This document shows, one piece after another, positions 12,535 through 17,086 of a stretch of 64,000 bases of DNA. The DNA comes from Naegleria gruberi (taxonomy: Eukaryota), in NCBI GenBank assembly GCA_000004985.1, contig GG738849.1; one strand, written 5' to 3'. Positions within the stretch are counted from its first letter, which is position 1; every line of letters begins with the position of its first letter. Position numbers and translations under genes: made by a program. The notes under the pieces are model-generated. The model saw only the letters and a list, made by a program, of their open reading frames with translations. It ran no database searches and was not told where the DNA came from.

Positions 12535-13041
12535 ATGAGCTCATCAGCCATCGTGACCAGTCCATCAAAGGCTGCCTCTAAACAAGCACCATCAAATGCT
12601 CAATCTACCACCAAACGTTTGCAATCCGAGTTGATGAATTTAATGATGTCCAAGACAGCTGGTATTACAGCCTTTCCGGAAGAAGGTAATATGCTCAAAT
12701 GGACAGGTACATTGAAAGGATGCGAAGGTACATGTTATGATGGACAATCGTACAAACTCTCCCTCTCCTTCTCTAATGACTATCCATTCAAGGTTCCAGT
12801 TGTAAAGTTTATCACACCAATCTACCATCCAAATGTAGATCAATTCGGAAACATTTGTTTGGATATCTTGAAGGATAAGTGGTCTGCCACATATAATGTT
12901 AGAACTATTCTCATTTCTATACAATCATTGATGAATGATCCAAATATTGAAGATCCATTGAATGGTGAAGCTGCTCAAAATTATGCTGACCCTGTCGAAT
13001 TTAAGAGATTGGTTGATTTGACCTATCAAAAGAAACAATAA
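12535..13041 (+). CDS. UBE2C: ubiquitin-conjugating enzyme E2 C (UBE2C/UbcH10-like)
   Basis: UBC fold with active-site 'HPNVDQFGNICLDILKDKW' and a UBE2C-like N-terminal extension. High similarity along the whole length to UBE2C (KRLQSELMNLMMS…). Confidence 0.9.
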   Translation: MSSSAIVTSPSKAASKQAPSNAQSTTKRLQSELMNLMMSKTAGITAFPEEGNMLKWTGTLKGCEGTCYDGQSYKLSLSFSNDYPFKVPVVKFITPIYHPNVDQFGNICLDILKDKWSATYNVRTILISIQSLMNDPNIEDPLNGEAAQNYADPVEFKRLVDLTYQKKQ

Positions 13042-13238
13042 GAAACTGAGGTGTTTCACTTTCCATTTTTACAAACATTTGTTAAAAACAAAAGATGAGC
13101 GTAATAGCAATACTCTTTAATGTACAAAATAAATCTAACTGAACAATTTCATGAATTTCTTTCCTATTGTTTTATTGTGTGATGCTGAAATCTTATAAAT
13201 AATATTGAATAAATTATTAATTAATAAATTTGAAAAAA

Positions 13239-14567
13239 ATGTTACAAGGAGAAAATGGAGCTGGGCAGCAATCATTACACGAAAAGGAAAAACAACGATC
13301 CAGATTAACTACACTGCTCCGACATTTATCACCAAATGTTTTCAAGGTGAAGGAATCAATTAATAATTTACAACAATCATCAAACTCTTCTCTGAACACT
13401 TCCGAATCATCCGAACGTGATAATCCTCAAGAAAATATTCAAAATGAAGAAGATATCATGTTACCAGTGAAGGCTCTCTTCCACAGCATGAAAAATCCAT
13501 CCAATAGAAATTCTCAACAAAATTTTGAAGAGTCTTTTCGTTCTTCTATGAATTCAATGCCCAATAGTGGATTATCAAAAGAGGAAATTAATAAGAAACA
13601 GAACAAGTGGAATATTGGATTTCCTGCAACTGATGTCAAAGCAACCCTATTCTCTCGGGAAATGGAAAGAGTTTACACAAGTACAAAACCACTCAATCCG
13701 AGAAGTGCATTAGTTGAACAGCCAAAGGGTGAACCACCAGATATTGATAAGGTTTTTGGAAGTAAGAAGGGTCAGGGTGGTCACGTTTGCATTGTTGGAC
13801 CAACTGGTTCAGGAAAGTCAACCATTGTGAGAGGTATTCTATGTGAAATGTCTGCTGAAAAGGCATTGGCAATTTATTCATTGGAATATCCTGTTGAAGT
13901 GAATTTACAAACCCACGGCTTGTTTAATGTTTGTCAAATTGATATGTTTCAAGAAATTCAAGGAAAACAAAGATCCCTTGCAGAAACAGCCAATAATTTA
14001 CTCAAACATGATCCAGATATTATCTATTTTGGTGAATTGAGACATAAGGTGGATTTTGAAACAGCAACCTCAATAGCTCTCAGTGGTGTTCAAGTTATCA
14101 GTACAGGACATGCTTCTTCACCAATCGATTTGTTGGAAAGACTAAAGTCAATGAATATTGATTTGAAAACTCAATTCAGAGCTTTCAAATGCATTATGGG
14201 AGTTAAGCGTGTCCCTATTTTATGTCCACATTGTAAGAGAAATATGGTAATTTATGGTAGAACTGATAATAGAGCACTCAAATTGCTGACCATGTATAGA
14301 GTTGTCACCACAGAAAAAGTGAATAGAAGAAAGGAAGTACCCGTAGTTTGCATGCCACCTGAACCATCGAATAGTAAGGGTCAGACATGTCCTCACTGTG
14401 TAAATGGCTACATCAGTAATCATACCATTTATGAGTTTTTATACATTACACCTGAATCTGATATGGAAACACTTCGTAAGAAGCATACTTACACAACAGA
14501 AGAAACCCTTCTGTCCCTCATTATGCAAGGTCAAGTCAATCCAATGTATTTACAGAACAGTGTTTAA
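13239..14567 (+). CDS. GspE/PilB-family type II/IV secretion ATPase homolog (bacterial-type), intronless, with divergent low-complexity N-terminal ~190 aa
   Basis: Real ATG at ~13239 (track ORF starts at an upstream TTG at 13230). Walker A 'HVCIVGPTGSGKST', Asp box 'DPDIIYFGELRHKVDFETA', His box 'ALSGVQVISTGHASSPIDLLERL', and a tetracysteine zinc motif 'LCPHCKR…(x~60)…TCPHCVNGY' are all collinear with bacterial GspE C-terminal ATPase domains. Flanked by intron-containing eukaryotic genes (UBE2C, AP-4 mu). Confidence 0.85.
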   Translation: MLQGENGAGQQSLHEKEKQRSRLTTLLRHLSPNVFKVKESINNLQQSSNSSLNTSESSERDNPQENIQNEEDIMLPVKALFHSMKNPSNRNSQQNFEESFRSSMNSMPNSGLSKEEINKKQNKWNIGFPATDVKATLFSREMERVYTSTKPLNPRSALVEQPKGEPPDIDKVFGSKKGQGGHVCIVGPTGSGKSTIVRGILCEMSAEKALAIYSLEYPVEVNLQTHGLFNVCQIDMFQEIQGKQRSLAETANNLLKHDPDIIYFGELRHKVDFETATSIALSGVQVISTGHASSPIDLLERLKSMNIDLKTQFRAFKCIMGVKRVPILCPHCKRNMVIYGRTDNRALKLLTMYRVVTTEKVNRRKEVPVVCMPPEPSNSKGQTCPHCVNGYISNHTIYEFLYITPESDMETLRKKHTYTTEETLLSLIMQGQVNPMYLQNSV

Positions 14568-14787: not shown

Positions 14788-16297
14788 ATGACCACCATCA
14801 CACACTTCTTTGTTCTCTCATCAAGAGGTGATAAAATTATAGCACGTAACTGTATGTACACTCACCACTAATATATCACCAACAATTATACTAAACACCA
14901 AAAATCACAGATCGTTATGATATTTTCGATGAAGTAGAGGATTTATTCTTCCGTAATGTTCGTAACGAAAGTATGGAAAACTATGGAAAGCCAATTTTCA
15001 ATCAACTAGGAATTAATTTCTTCCATGTTCGTAAATCAGGATTATATATTGTGTGTACAAGTAGAGAAAATTGTTCACCAATAACAATTTTTGAATTATT
15101 GGAACGTGCTTGTATTTTAATTAGAGATTTTACTGGTCAATTGAGTGAAGATTCGATTAGAAAGAATTTTGTAATGGTTTATGAATTATTGGATGAATTA
15201 TTCGATTGGGGAAAGGTTCAAACAACTCAAACCAACATTTTAACATATTGTATTCACAACGAACCGATTGAAACTGTTGATGTTCCGACTACAGCTGGTT
15301 TATTGAATTTAAGTTTTATTGATCCAAAAACTGTCAAATCAACAGCAAGTATGTATTTAATTGTGTTTTTTAATTTAACATTCTAACGTTAATTAATTGC
15401 AATTAATAATAATTGATGATTATTTTAAAATTATTATTGGAAACTTGATTTTTAAACACAGCTTGTTTGCCAATTCAAAAGAAGAATGATCAAATTTTCG
15501 TTGATGTTTTGGAACGTATAAATTGTGAAATGAATGCAGAGGGATCAGTTTTGCGTTCGGAAATTATTGGATCGATTGTTGTGAAGAGTTACTTGATGGG
15601 ATCTCCACTGATTCGTATTGCATTGAATCAAGATTTAGCTATTGGAACAGATACAAACACACCATACTCTGCCATTAGAGTTGATGCTTTGAATTTTAAT
15701 GAAATTATCAATAGAGAGGAATTTGAAATGGGTCGTCAATTGTCATTCTATCCACAAGATGGTGAAACTACTCTTCTTTCATATAGAGTTACCAACAATC
15801 ATCACGTCATTATGCCATTTAGAGTTTCACCTTACATTTCCAAATTCAATGAATATAAGATTGAGGCATCATTCAAAGTGAGATCTGACTTCCCTGCTTC
15901 TACATCTGCCACAGGAGTTTTTGTTCGTATTCCAGTACCAAAGAATGCCACATCATGTGGTGTAGTTATTGGAAATGATAAGGAAACTCAGCAATCGTAC
16001 GAATATAAGGAAAAGGATAAGGTTGTCATTTGGGGTATTAAGAAATTCCCAGGAGCTTCTGAACAATTTATCAAATTGAGAATTACTCTTCCTGAACCAA
16101 ATCGTATTGATGAGAGGAAGCTTATTGGGCCAGTCTCTATGAAATTTGAAATTCCAATGCACAATATGAGTGGTCTCCAATTGAGATATTTGAAAATTGG
16201 AAATGACAGTCTCAATAACGATAACAAGAACAAACAAAAACGTTGGGTTAGATATGTTACTCAAGCAGGTTCATACTGTGGAAGAGTTTCCATGTAA
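14788..16297 (+). CDS. AP-4 adaptor complex mu subunit (AP4M1-like), 3 exons
   Basis: join(14788..14851,14911..15348,15462..16297). Exon 1 'MTTITHFFVLSSRGDKIIARN' has a GTATGT donor at 14852. Intron 2 runs GTATGT(15349)…ACAG(15461). Phases are consistent with track ORFs 14973.. and 15467... Strong similarity to AP-4 mu (…HVRKSGLYIVCTSRENCSPITIFELLER…VMVYELLDE…; C-terminal …KWVRYVTQAGSY…). Confidence 0.85.
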
Positions 16298-16345: not shown

Positions 16346-17086
16346 ATGATTGAAAATTTGAAAAATAAAAAAAATAAATTTTTACGATTAAAAAAATATT
16401 CAACAACAAACATGCCTGCTCTTCCAAAGAAATTGTTGCAACAAAATCTTGTTGAAAAGTGGAAATTAGTGAAAGGAGATTTAGTTCAAATCACTACCGG
16501 AAAGGATGCCGGAAAGAGAGGTGTTATTAAAAAGGTTTTACGTGATAAGAATAGAGTTGTAGTTGATGGTTGTAATTTGGTTAAAAAGAATATTAAAAGA
16601 ACTGAAGAAAGAGCCGGTTATTCAATTATGAAGGAATCTCCACTTCATTGTAGTAATGTTGCATTGGTTTGTCCAGAAACTGATAAAGCCACTAAAGTTG
16701 CTTGGCGTTATATGGAAGATGGTACCAAAGTAAGAATGGCCAAGGAAAGTGGTTCTGTTATTCCAAAGCCTGAACCAAAGAAACGTGTCAAGAGACCAAG
16801 CAATCCATACAAAGATACAGACTCTGATGAAGTTATTAGAAAAACTTGGACTGATGAGGAACAACAACAATTGGTGAATTATTATCTTATCAAATTTGAA
16901 AAACAACATTTGAACCATCTCAAACAAGTTTCTCAAAATACTGAAAAGGCCGAAATGAAGAAGGAATTGGACGAAAAATTATTCCAAATGAGAGCATTGA
17001 AGAGAGCCAAGGAAATTATTGGCGAAGAACAACTTGCATCATCCATGTCGGAATTGAATTTGGAAGAAAAACCAACGAATTTATAA
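16346..17086 (+). CDS. mitochondrial ribosomal protein uL24m (MRPL24-like, KOW domain)
   Basis: '…LVKGDLVQITTGKDAGKRGVIKKVLRDKNRVVVDGCNLVKKNIK…SPLHCSNVALVCPETDKATKVAWRYMEDGTKVR' closely parallels MRPL24. Basic N-terminal presequence-like region. Confidence 0.75.
   Translation: MIENLKNKKNKFLRLKKYSTTNMPALPKKLLQQNLVEKWKLVKGDLVQITTGKDAGKRGVIKKVLRDKNRVVVDGCNLVKKNIKRTEERAGYSIMKESPLHCSNVALVCPETDKATKVAWRYMEDGTKVRMAKESGSVIPKPEPKKRVKRPSNPYKDTDSDEVIRKTWTDEEQQQLVNYYLIKFEKQHLNHLKQVSQNTEKAEMKKELDEKLFQMRALKRAKEIIGEEQLASSMSELNLEEKPTNL

What the first reader, a model, noticed from the sequence alone, without database searches (positions are those of the whole stretch)
13239..14567. Bacterial-type GspE/PilB secretion ATPase gene embedded between intron-containing eukaryotic genes
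The ORF carries every hallmark of the T2SS/T4P assembly ATPase C-terminal domain in the right order. These are Walker A GPTGSGKST, Asp box DPDIIYFGELR…ETA, His box ISTGHAS…LLERL, and the tetracysteine CPHC…CPHC zinc motif. It lacks the bacterial N1E/N2E domains and instead has a ~190-aa low-complexity N-terminal extension. It sits 190 bp downstream of UBE2C and 220 bp upstream of a spliced AP-4 mu gene, so it is nuclear and not contamination. In eukaryotes such a gene is known only from a few protist lineages (Naegleria, jakobids, malawimonads and hemimastigotes), where it belongs to a mitochondrial T2SS-derived system of unknown function, with GspD/F/G partners elsewhere. The same window also carries cilium genes (IFT38, Tctex1) and AT-rich short-intron genes, which fits such an organism. 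The N-terminal extension may hold a targeting signal.
Basis: partly seen in the sequence, partly recalled or inferred. Interest (0 to 1): 0.85.

Follow-up and report, generated by a model that had tools for sequence, protein, structure and literature searches.

The report
Known Naegleria mitochondrial GspE ATPase gene
This is the already published nuclear gene of the amoeba Naegleria gruberi for GspE, the ATP-driven motor of a bacterial-type secretion machine kept in its mitochondria; the gene call is correct but not new, although its N-terminus carries a peroxisome-type address tag, shared with its partner subunits, that I could not find described anywhere.

Summary
Window 13239-14567 (+) is an intron-less 442-codon ORF with a significant PF00437 (T2SSE) hit. 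It has Walker A, Walker B, a His box and an invariant tetracysteine motif, and it lacks the bacterial N1E/N2E domains.

It is not new. The first 399 residues are 100% identical to Naegleria gruberi NEG-M XP_002681638.1, the NgGspE of Horvathova et al. 2021 (PMC8134430). That paper's NgGspE cloning primer matches 13239-13259 exactly. [quoted passage not shown] Its 'Asp box' is the Walker B. The 'AP-4 mu' neighbour is closer to AP-1/AP-2 mu. The N-terminal extension is not uniformly low-complexity.

One thing appears unreported. Residues 22-30 (RLTTLLRHL) are a canonical PTS2 nonapeptide. A relaxed version of the same motif sits near the N-terminus of 56 of 59 GspE, GspEL, GspEN2A, GspEN2B, GspF and GspG proteins from ten species, against 0 of 49 outer-membrane-type or other partner proteins. 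These organisms also carry Pex7-like (PTS2-receptor-like) Gcp1-3 proteins. This suggests a testable signal-receptor pair.

The parts
13239..14567 (+). Complete intron-less coding sequence of NgGspE (442 aa plus stop), the ATPase of the mitochondrial T2SS-derived system
   Evidence: ORF. PF00437 E 2.4e-25. 100% identity over aa 1-399 to the published XP_002681638.1. Primer match.
13302..13334 (+). RLTTLLRHL-SP (aa 22-32): a nonapeptide fitting the canonical PTS2 consensus, followed by x-Pro. It is conserved in eukaryotic GspE and in five (partly seven) partner families.
   Evidence: Coordinates. Conservation. Statistics.
13344..13592 (+). S/N/E/Q-rich variable insert (aa 36-118). It is long in Naegleria and Willaertia, shorter in Acrasis and in the unnamed P0005, and absent from Neovahlkampfia, jakobid and malawimonad orthologues.
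   Evidence: Alignment A1. Composition S17 N14 E10 of 83. AF2 pLDDT below 50 over aa 40-77.
13593..13778 (+). Conserved pre-ATPase segment (aa 119-180, KWNIGFP...EQPKGEPPD). It is conserved among eukaryotic GspE but lies outside the Pfam match.
   Evidence: Invariant columns P129, F138, S139, E143, Y146, P162, G164, P166, P167. The Pfam match starts at aa 181.
13797..13823 (+). Walker A / P-loop, GPTGSGKST (aa 187-195)
13881..13919 (+). Asp-box region LEYPVEVNLQTHG (aa 215-227). E216 and E220 are invariant; the family's Asp is replaced by Tyr.
   Evidence: Aligned to EpsE VEDPIEFDIDG. Conservation. Coordinates.
14010..14045 (+). Walker B with the presumed catalytic Glu, DPDIIYFGELRH (aa 258-269).
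   Evidence: Aligned to EpsE DPDVVMVGEIRD. Invariant D258, P259, D260, G265, E266, R268.
14097..14123 (+). His box, ISTGHASSP (aa 287-295)
   Evidence: Aligned to EpsE MSTLHTNTA. Invariant S288, T289, G290, H291.
14223..14402 (+). Tetracysteine (zinc-type) subdomain: CPHC aa 329-332 ... CPHC aa 384-387
   Evidence: All four Cys are invariant in 11 orthologues. They align with the CPHC...CPRC of the bacterial GspE/PilB-type P0027. Coordinates.
12535..13041 (+). Upstream neighbour: ubiquitin-conjugating enzyme gene (context only)
   Evidence: PF00179 E 1.8e-45.
14789..16297 (+). Downstream neighbour: spliced adaptor-complex mu subunit gene. The first exon starts at ATG 14789 and there is a GT..AG intron at about 14853-14910 (context only).
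   Evidence: Sequence. PF00928 E 6e-61. Closest to AP-1/AP-2 mu in PDB.

Best explanation
The ORF is NgGspE, the nuclear gene of Naegleria gruberi for the ATPase of the mitochondrial type II secretion-derived system (miT2SS).

The protein is made in the cytosol and delivered to mitochondria by information in its eukaryote-specific N-terminal extension. At the matrix face of the inner membrane its GspE/PilB-type C-terminal ATPase domain is expected to form a hexamer on the GspF platform. The domain has a RecA-like core with Walker A, Walker B and a His box, plus a tetracysteine subdomain. The hexamer probably completes itself in trans with the separate N2E-like protein GspEN2A. It would use ATP hydrolysis to polymerise GspG pseudopilins, which push a still unknown substrate through the GspD pore in the outer membrane.

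Shown here: the identity with NgGspE, the domain, the motifs, the fold class and the nuclear context.
Inferred: ATPase activity, hexamer formation, pairing with GspEN2A, and the secretion function.

The confidence given (0.8) is for the whole statement. The identity with NgGspE alone is close to certain.
For: - Identity: 100% over 399 aa to the published NgGspE sequence. The published primer matches 13239-13259.
- Family: PF00437 at 89.4 bits. The best NCBIfam models are GspE PRK10436 (E 3.1e-24), then TfpB, ComGA, GspE TIGR02533, PilB and PilT. The best PDB sequence hit is V. cholerae EpsE.
- Fold: the AF2 model matches the PilF/PilB/GspE extension ATPases at E 3.5e-19 to 1e-15, ahead of the PilT retraction ATPases at about 1e-11.
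- Conservation: all catalytic motifs and the four Cys are invariant across heterolobosean, jakobid and malawimonad orthologues.
- Orthologues: they share 45-80% identity, whereas bacterial proteins share at most about 39% and only over the P-loop core.
- Nuclear origin: GC3 is 0.28, against 0.25-0.36 for the neighbouring genes. The flanking genes are eukaryotic. Orthologues sit in 0.8-1.0 Mb eukaryotic contigs, and the N. fowleri copy is spliced.
- Literature (PMC8134430): FISH, yeast mitochondrial localisation, the proteome flag 'M', GoGspE self-interaction and the proposed GspE-GspEN2A pairing.
Against: - No ATPase activity, hexamer or secretion substrate has been shown for any eukaryotic GspE.
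- The scores against the curated bacterial GspE equivalog models are far below their cut-offs (85.5 vs 617; 67.9 vs 630).
- Structure search cannot separate GspE from T4P PilB/PilF. The authors themselves say some eukaryotic Gsp proteins cannot be assigned unambiguously to the T2SS rather than to other T4P-superfamily machines.
- Targeting predictors do not see a mitochondrial presequence in NgGspE. Its N-terminus carries a canonical PTS2-type motif instead.
- Localisation of NgGspE itself rests on heterologous expression and fractionation. There is no antibody data for it in N. gruberi.
- The Asp of the Asp box is replaced.
Confidence: 0.8

Rival explanations
1. The conserved N-terminal nonapeptide is a working PTS2. 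On this reading NgGspE is partly or wholly a Pex7 cargo imported into peroxisomes, or is dually targeted, rather than being a purely mitochondrial protein.
For: - RLTTLLRHL at aa 22-30 meets the canonical PTS2 definition and lies within the first 40 residues, as PTS2 signals do.
- The paralogue NgGspEL carries RLTSLLSHL and was found in the putative peroxisomal cluster of the N. gruberi proteome.
- Several Gcp partners have PTS1 signals or fractionate with peroxisomes.
- Overlapping PTS2/MTS signals with dual targeting are known in another discoban, T. brucei alpha-KDE1.
Against: - NgGspE-GFP went to mitochondria in yeast, which has a working Pex7 pathway.
- NgGspE is flagged M (mitochondrial) in the proteome.
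- The N-terminal 160 aa of NgGspG1, which include its version of the motif, deliver a reporter to T. brucei mitochondria.
- A PTS2-looking nonapeptide (RLx5HL) of a Nannochloropsis protein also targeted mitochondria.
Confidence: 0.12
2. The protein is the motor of a T4P-like fibre or another PilB-type machine in the organelle, and not of a secretion system in the T2SS sense.
For: - The top structural matches are the PilF/PilB type IV pilus extension ATPases.
- NCBIfam scores for TfpB, ComGA and PilB are close behind GspE, and all are far below their cut-offs.
- The authors note that classification is ambiguous.
- No substrate is known.
Against: - The partner set published for the same genomes is GspD (a secretin), GspF and GspG. 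It has pseudopilin features, and the NgGspD pore has been demonstrated.
- The best sequence model and the best PDB sequence hit are GspE.
Confidence: 0.12
3. The ORF is bacterial contamination, a chimeric assembly join or a very recent horizontal transfer.
For: The domain is otherwise bacterial, and this copy has no intron.
Against: - GC, GC3 and the AT-rich short intergenic spacers are the same as in the rest of the window.
- The ORF lies 197 and 221 bp from eukaryotic genes, one of them spliced.
- Orthologues sit in large eukaryotic contigs of N. fowleri (spliced) and Willaertia.
- Eukaryotic orthologues are far closer to each other than to any bacterium.
- Published FISH places the gene in the nucleus.
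Confidence: 0.01
4. The gene is a decaying, catalytically dead relic.
For: The Asp-box Asp is lost. A dead paralogue, GspEL, exists in the same genomes.
Against: - Walker A, Walker B, the His box and the four Cys are invariant over lineages that may span the eukaryote root.
- Identity is 75-80% among Naegleria-type sequences.
- The reading frame is intact.
- The protein is detected by mass spectrometry.
Confidence: 0.03

Closest known systems
NgGspE, Naegleria gruberi NEG-M XP_002681638.1 (Horvathova et al. 2021, PMC8134430)
   Same: Identical over all 399 residues that the stored supplement shows. The start codon is the same as in the published cloning primer. [quoted passage not shown]
   Different: Nothing detected. 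The last 43 residues could not be compared because the stored table cell is truncated, but they are conserved in the orthologues.
Bacterial T2SS ATPase GspE/EpsE (V. cholerae 1P9R, 4KSR; V. vulnificus 4PHT)
   Same: C-terminal ATPase domain with Walker A, Walker B, His box and the CxxC...CxxC subdomain. It is the best PDB sequence hit and a strong structural match.
   Different: - About 19-30% identity.
- No N1E (GspL-binding) domain and no N2E domain detected in cis.
- The Asp-box Asp is replaced by Tyr.
- There is a eukaryote-specific N-terminal extension carrying a PTS2-type motif.
- It fails the NCBIfam equivalog cut-offs by a wide margin.
Type IV pilus extension ATPases PilB/PilF (5TSH, 5OIU, 5IT5)
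   Same: These are the top Foldseek matches (E 3.5e-19 to 1e-16). They share the motor architecture and the zinc-type motif.
   Different: There are no N-terminal GSPII domains here. The published partner set is T2SS-like. The NCBIfam PilB score is lower than the GspE scores.
PilT/PilU retraction ATPases
   Same: The P-loop core is shared.
   Different: The matches are weaker (Foldseek about 1e-11). The sequence alignments with PilT stop at about aa 305, before the tetracysteine region. The apparently best prokaryotic hits (P0021-P0026) score high only because they hold two tandem PilT-like domains.
GspEL, the inactive paralogue in the same organisms
   Same: It is derived from the same nucleotide-binding domain and carries the same N-terminal R-phi-x-x-phi-phi-x-H/Q-phi motif.
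   Different: GspEL has lost Walker A, the Asp box and Walker B, and it fractionates with peroxisomes. The window protein keeps all the catalytic motifs.
PTS2 cargo proteins recognised by Pex7 (for example peroxisomal thiolases)
   Same: - The nonapeptide has the same constrained positions: 1, 2, 5, 6, 8 and 9.
- It lies in the first 40 residues.
- It is predicted to be helical.
- It sits in an N-terminal stretch that, for GspG, is absent from the peptides detected in the proteome.
   Different: - The carriers are found in mitochondria.
- Positions 6 and 9 accept more hydrophobic residues.
- A Pro at +11 is frequent (36 of 56).
- Recognition by any Pex7-family protein is untested.

Membership tests
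T2SSE secretion-ATPase superfamily (Pfam PF00437: GspE/PilB/PilT/VirB11) | Profile match above the curated gathering score | tested here: met
   89.4 bits against 24.9, E 2.4e-25.
T2SSE secretion-ATPase superfamily (Pfam PF00437: GspE/PilB/PilT/VirB11) | Walker A, Walker B with the catalytic Glu, and His box, in order | tested here: met
   GPTGSGKST at 187-195, DPDIIYFGELR at 258-268 and STGHAS at 288-293. They align to the EpsE motifs and are invariant in the orthologues.
T2SSE secretion-ATPase superfamily (Pfam PF00437: GspE/PilB/PilT/VirB11) | Asp box (E-D-P-h-E) | tested here: inconclusive
   The sequence is E216-Y-P-V-E220. Both Glu are kept, but the Asp is replaced by Tyr, and by Phe or Ser in other eukaryotes.
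T2SSE secretion-ATPase superfamily (Pfam PF00437: GspE/PilB/PilT/VirB11) | Fold of the solved family members | tested here: met
   Foldseek against PDB gives PilF, PilB and GspE at E 3.5e-19 to 1e-15 with probability 1.00. The model core has pLDDT 75-88, but the overall mean is only 63.5.
Extension-type ATPases GspE/PilB (as opposed to PilT) | Tetracysteine CxxC...CxxC subdomain after the His box | tested here: met
   C329, C332, C384 and C387 are invariant and align with the CPHC...CPRC of a bacterial GspE/PilB-type protein.
Bacterial GspE proper (NCBIfam TIGR02533 / PRK10436 equivalogs) | Score above the equivalog cut-off | tested here: not met
   85.5 against 617, and 67.9 against 630.25.
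Bacterial GspE proper (NCBIfam TIGR02533 / PRK10436 equivalogs) | N1E (GspL-binding) and N2E domains in the same polypeptide | tested here: not met
   There is no PF05157 hit, and the PF00437 match starts at profile position 143. The bacterial hits carry PF05157. The paper reaches the same conclusion.
Bacterial GspE proper (NCBIfam TIGR02533 / PRK10436 equivalogs) | Encoded next to gspD/F/G and the rest of the operon | tested here: not met
   None of nine other N. gruberi miT2SS proteins maps to the window by tblastn: GspG1, GspG2, GspF, GspDN2, GspDL, GspEN2A, Gcp1, Gcp5 and Gcp6. GspD itself was not among the queries. The genes are dispersed, as expected for nuclear genes.
Eukaryotic miT2SS GspE (Horvathova et al. 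2021) | Orthology or identity with the described eukaryotic GspE clade | tested here: met
   100% identity to NgGspE. Identity is 57-80% to the N. fowleri, N. lovaniensis, Willaertia, Acrasis, Malawimonas, Andalucia and Gefionella GspE, against at most about 39% to bacterial hits.
Eukaryotic miT2SS GspE (Horvathova et al. 2021) | Nuclear gene | tested here: met
   Composition and neighbours. FISH in the paper.
Eukaryotic miT2SS GspE (Horvathova et al. 2021) | Mitochondrial localisation | not testable with these tools
   Published: GFP fusion in yeast mitochondria and the proteome flag M. No presequence is predicted.
Eukaryotic miT2SS GspE (Horvathova et al. 2021) | Co-occurrence with GspD, GspF, GspG and the Gcp set in the same genome | not testable with these tools
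   Only 64 kb of the genome is available here. The co-occurrence is published for N. gruberi.
PTS2-bearing proteins (Pex7 cargo) | Nonapeptide [RK]-[LVI]-x5-[HQ]-[LAF], with a hydrophobic position 5, within about the first 40 residues | tested here: met
   RLTTLLRHL at aa 22-30. The definition is taken from PMC7710942. It is the only such hit in the first 120 aa of 48 ORFs in the window.
PTS2-bearing proteins (Pex7 cargo) | Conservation of the nonapeptide in orthologues | tested here: met
   The relaxed pattern is present in 8 of 8 published GspE sequences, and the motif is visible at the N-termini of further database orthologues with complete N-termini.
PTS2-bearing proteins (Pex7 cargo) | Binding by Pex7 and import into peroxisomes | not testable with these tools
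   The published yeast localisation is mitochondrial, which argues against classical PTS2 function.

The most novel reading that the evidence does not exclude
The N-terminal nonapeptide of NgGspE (RLTTLLRHL, window 13302-13328) may be one instance of a dedicated PTS2-type signal.

- The signal is shared by the predicted inner-membrane and matrix-side parts of the mitochondrial T2SS: GspE, GspEL, GspEN2A, GspEN2B, GspF, GspG and, in several species, the putative peptidase Gcp16.
- It is absent from the outer-membrane-type parts (GspD, GspDL, GspDN1, GspDN3).
- Its reader would be one or more of the Pex7-like WD40 proteins Gcp1-3, which occur only in organisms that have the system.
- Gcp1-3 could act as cytosolic targeting receptors or as assembly or hand-over factors at or in the mitochondrion. 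They might stand in for the missing GspL/GspM/GspC tethers.

If true, this would give Gcp1-3 a function, explain why predictors see no presequence in the heterolobosean Gsp proteins, and explain the recurrent 'peroxisome' hints around the system. It would also yield a search pattern for further clients, including the unknown substrate.
Probability: 0.35. Interest if true: 0.75.

Novelty: already known. Interest (0 to 1): 0.33.

Why it matters
The gene itself adds nothing to what was published in 2021. It is the reference eukaryotic GspE, and the value of this check is to file it correctly and remove it from the list of surprises.

What could matter is the motif found on the way. The function of the miT2SS, the role of the Pex7-like Gcp1-3 proteins and the repeated links to peroxisomes are open questions in the two papers on the system (PMC8134430, PMC10128026). 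A conserved PTS2-type tag on exactly the inner-membrane and matrix subunits turns 'what do Gcp1-3 bind?' into a direct binding or co-folding experiment. It also gives a sequence pattern for finding further clients.

Tried and rejected
- The exact-sequence look-up of the window protein in the large collection found nothing. So the species was not identifiable from the homologue search alone (best hits 75-80%). Identity came from the paper's supplements.
- tblastn of nine other N. gruberi miT2SS proteins against the window found no second component.
- The best-scoring prokaryotic hits are alphaproteobacterial 'PilT/PilU' proteins of 700-770 aa. I examined them as a possible clue to origin and rejected them. 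In the one I examined (P0022) the score is the sum of two tandem ATPase domains, each about 30% identical over about 120 aa.
- I tried to test the Pex7 affinity of Gcp1 by sequence search of PDB. WDR24 and other generic WD40 proteins outrank Pex7 (3W15 at 4e-13). The Pex7 link therefore rests on the authors' tree.
- I looked for a canonical PTS2 thiolase of N. gruberi for comparison. Only an SCP2-type thiolase without PTS2 is in the stored table.
- The AF2 model is too uncertain over aa 1-180 (pLDDT 35-66). It cannot show whether aa 119-180 mimic part of N2E or how the motif helix packs.
- Synteny does not help. In N. fowleri and Willaertia the gene lies next to Noc2 and an Arf-family gene, not next to the UQ_con and adaptor-mu genes seen here.
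- I considered the motifs in Gcp9/Gcp12 ('FPRV') and Gcp13 ('LPKPNKGLWEP') as further instances and did not count them, because their register differs.
Full report
**What is at the coordinates**

Window 13239-14567 (+) is one uninterrupted ORF of 442 codons. Its ATG is the first start after an in-frame TAA at 13218. It scores 89.4 bits (E 2.4e-25) against Pfam PF00437 T2SSE, whose gathering score is 24.9. The match covers residues 181-414 and starts only at profile position 143 of 370. The N-terminal family PF05157, which the bacterial homologues carry, does not match.

The best solved relative by sequence is V. cholerae EpsE/GspE (1P9R, E 1.3e-12), followed by PilT, PilB and PilF. The alignment with EpsE fixes the motifs:
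- Walker A, GPTGSGKST: aa 187-195.
- Asp-box region, LEYPVEV (aa 215-221), opposite EpsE VEDPIEF.
- Walker B, DPDIIYFGELR (aa 258-268), opposite DPDVVMVGEIRD.
- His box, STGHAS: aa 288-293.
- Two CPHC pairs: aa 329-332 and aa 384-387.

The four cysteines are invariant in eleven eukaryotic sequences. They align with the CxxC...CxxC of a bacterial GspE/PilB-type protein.

**What it is**

The protein is Naegleria gruberi GspE. Supplementary Data 1 and 2 of Horvathova et al. [quoted passage not shown] The paper's NgGspE forward primer core, ATGTTACAAGGAGAAAATGGA, occurs once in the window, at 13239-13259.

The large protein collection does not hold this exact sequence. That is why the homologue search only returned relatives at 57-80% identity: N. 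fowleri, N. lovaniensis, Willaertia magna, Acrasis kona, Malawimonas, Andalucia, Gefionella and several unnamed environmental sequences.

**Nuclear, not contaminant**

- GC (0.37) and GC3 (0.28) of the ORF match the neighbouring genes, whose GC3 is 0.25-0.36.
- It lies 197 bp downstream of a ubiquitin-conjugating enzyme gene. It lies 221 bp upstream of the ATG of an adaptor-complex mu gene whose first exon ends in a GT..AG intron.
- A mitochondrial-type ribosomal L24 gene, NKAP, Cluap1/IFT38, squalene synthase and other eukaryotic genes fill the rest of the window.
- The orthologues lie in contigs of 0.8 Mb (N. fowleri) and 1.0 Mb (Willaertia) among eukaryotic genes. The N. fowleri copy is spliced. 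The neighbours there (Noc2 and an Arf-family gene) differ from those here.
- The paper adds FISH of NgGspE to nuclei.

**Family placement**

The protein is a member of the T2SSE superfamily by profile, motifs and fold. The AF2 model has a mean pLDDT of 63.5 and 75-88 in the ATPase core. It finds the extension ATPases PilF, PilB and GspE at E 3.5e-19 to 1e-15, and the retraction ATPases PilT and PilU only at about 1e-11. The tetracysteine motif also points to the extension type.

It is not a bacterial GspE in the strict sense. The NCBIfam equivalog models rank GspE first, but at 85.5 and 67.9 bits against cut-offs of 617 and 630. The N1E and N2E domains are missing. The authors likewise state that eukaryotic GspE corresponds only to the CTE domain, and that some Gsp proteins cannot be assigned unambiguously to T2SS versus other T4P-superfamily machines.

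The apparently closest prokaryotes are alphaproteobacterial 'PilT/PilU' proteins. The one examined is an artefact of two tandem domains adding their scores.

**How it most likely works**

Following the published model, the cytosol-made protein reaches the mitochondrial matrix side of the inner membrane. There it assembles as a hexameric motor on GspF, probably paired with the separate N2E-like GspEN2A. It drives GspG pseudopilus assembly towards the GspD pore.

The literature shows:
- NgGspE-GFP in yeast mitochondria.
- Self-interaction of the Gefionella orthologue.

ATP hydrolysis, the hexamer, the pairing with GspEN2A and any secreted substrate are inferred.

**An apparently undescribed feature: where the motif occurs**

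The N-terminal region is not one low-complexity stretch. Residues 22-32, RLTTLLRHL-SP, are conserved in every eukaryotic GspE with a complete N-terminus. Between them and the conserved segment at aa 119-180 lies an S/N/E-rich insert that is long only in Naegleria and Willaertia.

RLTTLLRHL fits the canonical PTS2 nonapeptide. The definition used is [RK]-[LVI]-x5-[HQ]-[LAF], with a hydrophobic position 5, within the first 40 residues (PMC7710942).

Reading the paper's Supplementary Data 1, I found the same element near the N-terminus of the following families:

| Family | Sequences with the motif |
|---|---|
| GspE | 8 of 8 |
| GspF | 8 of 8 |
| GspG | 15 of 16 |
| GspEL | 10 of 10 |
| GspEN2A | 10 of 10 |
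| GspEN2B | 5 of 7 |

It is also present in Gcp16 of Reclinomonas, both malawimonads and Spironema, and in the Gcp6 of the two Naegleria species. It was absent from all 49 control N-termini scanned: GspD, GspDL, GspDN1, GspDN3, Gcp7 and Gcp8. By eye I also saw none at the N-termini of GspDN2, Gcp5, Gcp10, Gcp11, Gcp14 and Gcp15.

**How far this exceeds chance**

- The strict literature pattern, fixed beforehand, hits 18 of 59 inner-platform N-termini. It hits 0 of 49 controls, and shuffles give 0.27 expected (maximum 3 in 2000).
- A relaxed pattern, fitted after the fact, hits 56 of 59 against 0 of 49, with 0.75 expected.
- 45 of the 56 instances depart from the canonical PTS2 at no more than one position, always by a hydrophobic swap.
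- The constrained positions are 1, 2, 5, 6, 8 and 9, as in PTS2. This is partly imposed by the search pattern, but L is 43 of 56 at position 5 and H is 43 of 56 at position 8.
- Pro at +11, which was not in the pattern, occurs in 36 of 56.
- In the window itself, GspE is the only one of 48 M-start ORFs of at least 100 aa with the motif in its first 120 residues.

**Why the motif may matter, and why caution is needed**

The same organisms, and only they, have three paralogues of the PTS2 receptor Pex7 (Gcp1-3) in addition to Pex7 itself. NgGcp1 is in the mitochondrial set and NgGcp2 in the peroxisomal set. NgGspEL, with a strict PTS2-type motif, fractionates with peroxisomes.

The paper mentions PTS2 once, only as the ligand of Pex7. 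Neither its text nor its supplements describe an N-terminal motif. The 2023 review does not mention PTS2 or Pex7. No other paper in the held library connects PTS2 with the miT2SS or with these Naegleria proteins. A signal-receptor relation between this motif and Gcp1-3 is therefore a new, testable hypothesis, not a result.

Against a classical PTS2 role:
- NgGspE-GFP went to yeast mitochondria, and the NgGspG1 extension works in T. brucei mitochondria. Neither organism is among those reported to carry Gcp1-3.
- The motif contains the phi-x-x-phi-phi pattern typical of presequence helices (my own knowledge).
- PTS2-like nonapeptides are known to behave as mitochondrial signals or to overlap them.
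- My sequence test of Gcp1 against PDB did not single out Pex7.

For GspG, all detected peptides lie downstream of the prepilin-type processing site. The motif-bearing extension is therefore probably removed from the mature protein, which fits a targeting or hand-over signal better than a permanent tether.

**Verdict**

The feature is already known: it is the published reference gene for eukaryotic GspE. The overall interest is low to moderate, and it is carried only by the PTS2-type motif lead.

Noticed in passing
window 13302-13334 (aa 22-32 of GspE); the same element occurs in the published GspEL, GspEN2A, GspEN2B, GspF, GspG and some Gcp16/Gcp6 sequences: A canonical PTS2-type nonapeptide (RLTTLLRHL) followed by x-Pro. 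It is shared by 56 of 59 predicted inner-membrane and matrix-side miT2SS proteins of ten species and by 0 of 49 outer-membrane-type or other partners. The same organisms carry Pex7-like Gcp1-3. I found no description of it in the held literature.
   Followed up: partly
window 13881-13901 (aa 215-221): The Asp-box Asp of bacterial GspE (V-E-D-P-I-E) is replaced by Tyr (L-E-Y-P-V-E) here, and by Phe or Ser in other eukaryotic GspE, while both Glu are invariant. The consequence for catalysis is unknown.
   Followed up: partly
window 14789-16297: The adaptor mu-subunit gene downstream of GspE is more similar to AP-1 mu (2e-43) and AP-2 mu (1e-41) than to AP-4 mu (6e-31) in PDB. The first intron is at about 14853-14910.
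   Followed up: partly
window 16346-17086: A mitochondrial-type ribosomal protein L24 gene (KOW plus ribosomal_L24 domains) lies about 1.8 kb downstream of GspE. So two nuclear genes for mitochondrial proteins of bacterial ancestry are near neighbours. This is probably coincidence.
   Followed up: no
L001 6001-7642 (N. fowleri) and L002 6001-7341 (Willaertia magna): The GspE locus is not syntenic with the window. In both relatives the gene lies beside Noc2 and an Arf-family GTPase gene. The N. fowleri copy has about 109 nt of intron, while the N. gruberi and Willaertia copies have none.
   Followed up: partly
The Tctex1 claim was not checked.
   Followed up: partly
published sequences of GspDN2, Gcp9, Gcp12 and Gcp13 (Suppl. 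Data 1 of PMC8134430): - GspDN2 proteins end in PTS1-like tripeptides (SRL, PRL, ANL) and hold an internal R-L-x-x-F-L-x-H-F element.
- Gcp9 and Gcp12 share a conserved '[FL]-F-P-[RHK]-V' element that resembles the second half of the GspE motif.
- Gcp13 has an internal LPKPNKGLWEP and a C-terminal SKL or SRL.
- None of these was counted as an instance of the motif.
   Followed up: no
proteins P0021-P0026: The best-scoring prokaryotic hits are 700-770 aa proteins, several labelled 'PilT/PilU' from alphaproteobacterial and other metagenome-assembled genomes. In the one examined (P0022) two tandem ATPase domains add up to the score, so the rank does not indicate closer relationship.
   Followed up: yes
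protein P0019 (Andalucia godoyi, 263 aa): This is a second database entry for A. godoyi GspE. It is identical to the full-length protein up to the first CPHC and then diverges into unrelated residues. It is probably an alternative or erroneous gene model, not a paralogue.
   Followed up: no
protein P0003 (466 aa, ENA contig of 3.4 kb): An unnamed environmental sequence is the closest relative of NgGspE in the collection, at 80% identity. It carries the same RLTTLLRHL motif and is presumably from an unsequenced Naegleria-like amoeba.
   Followed up: no
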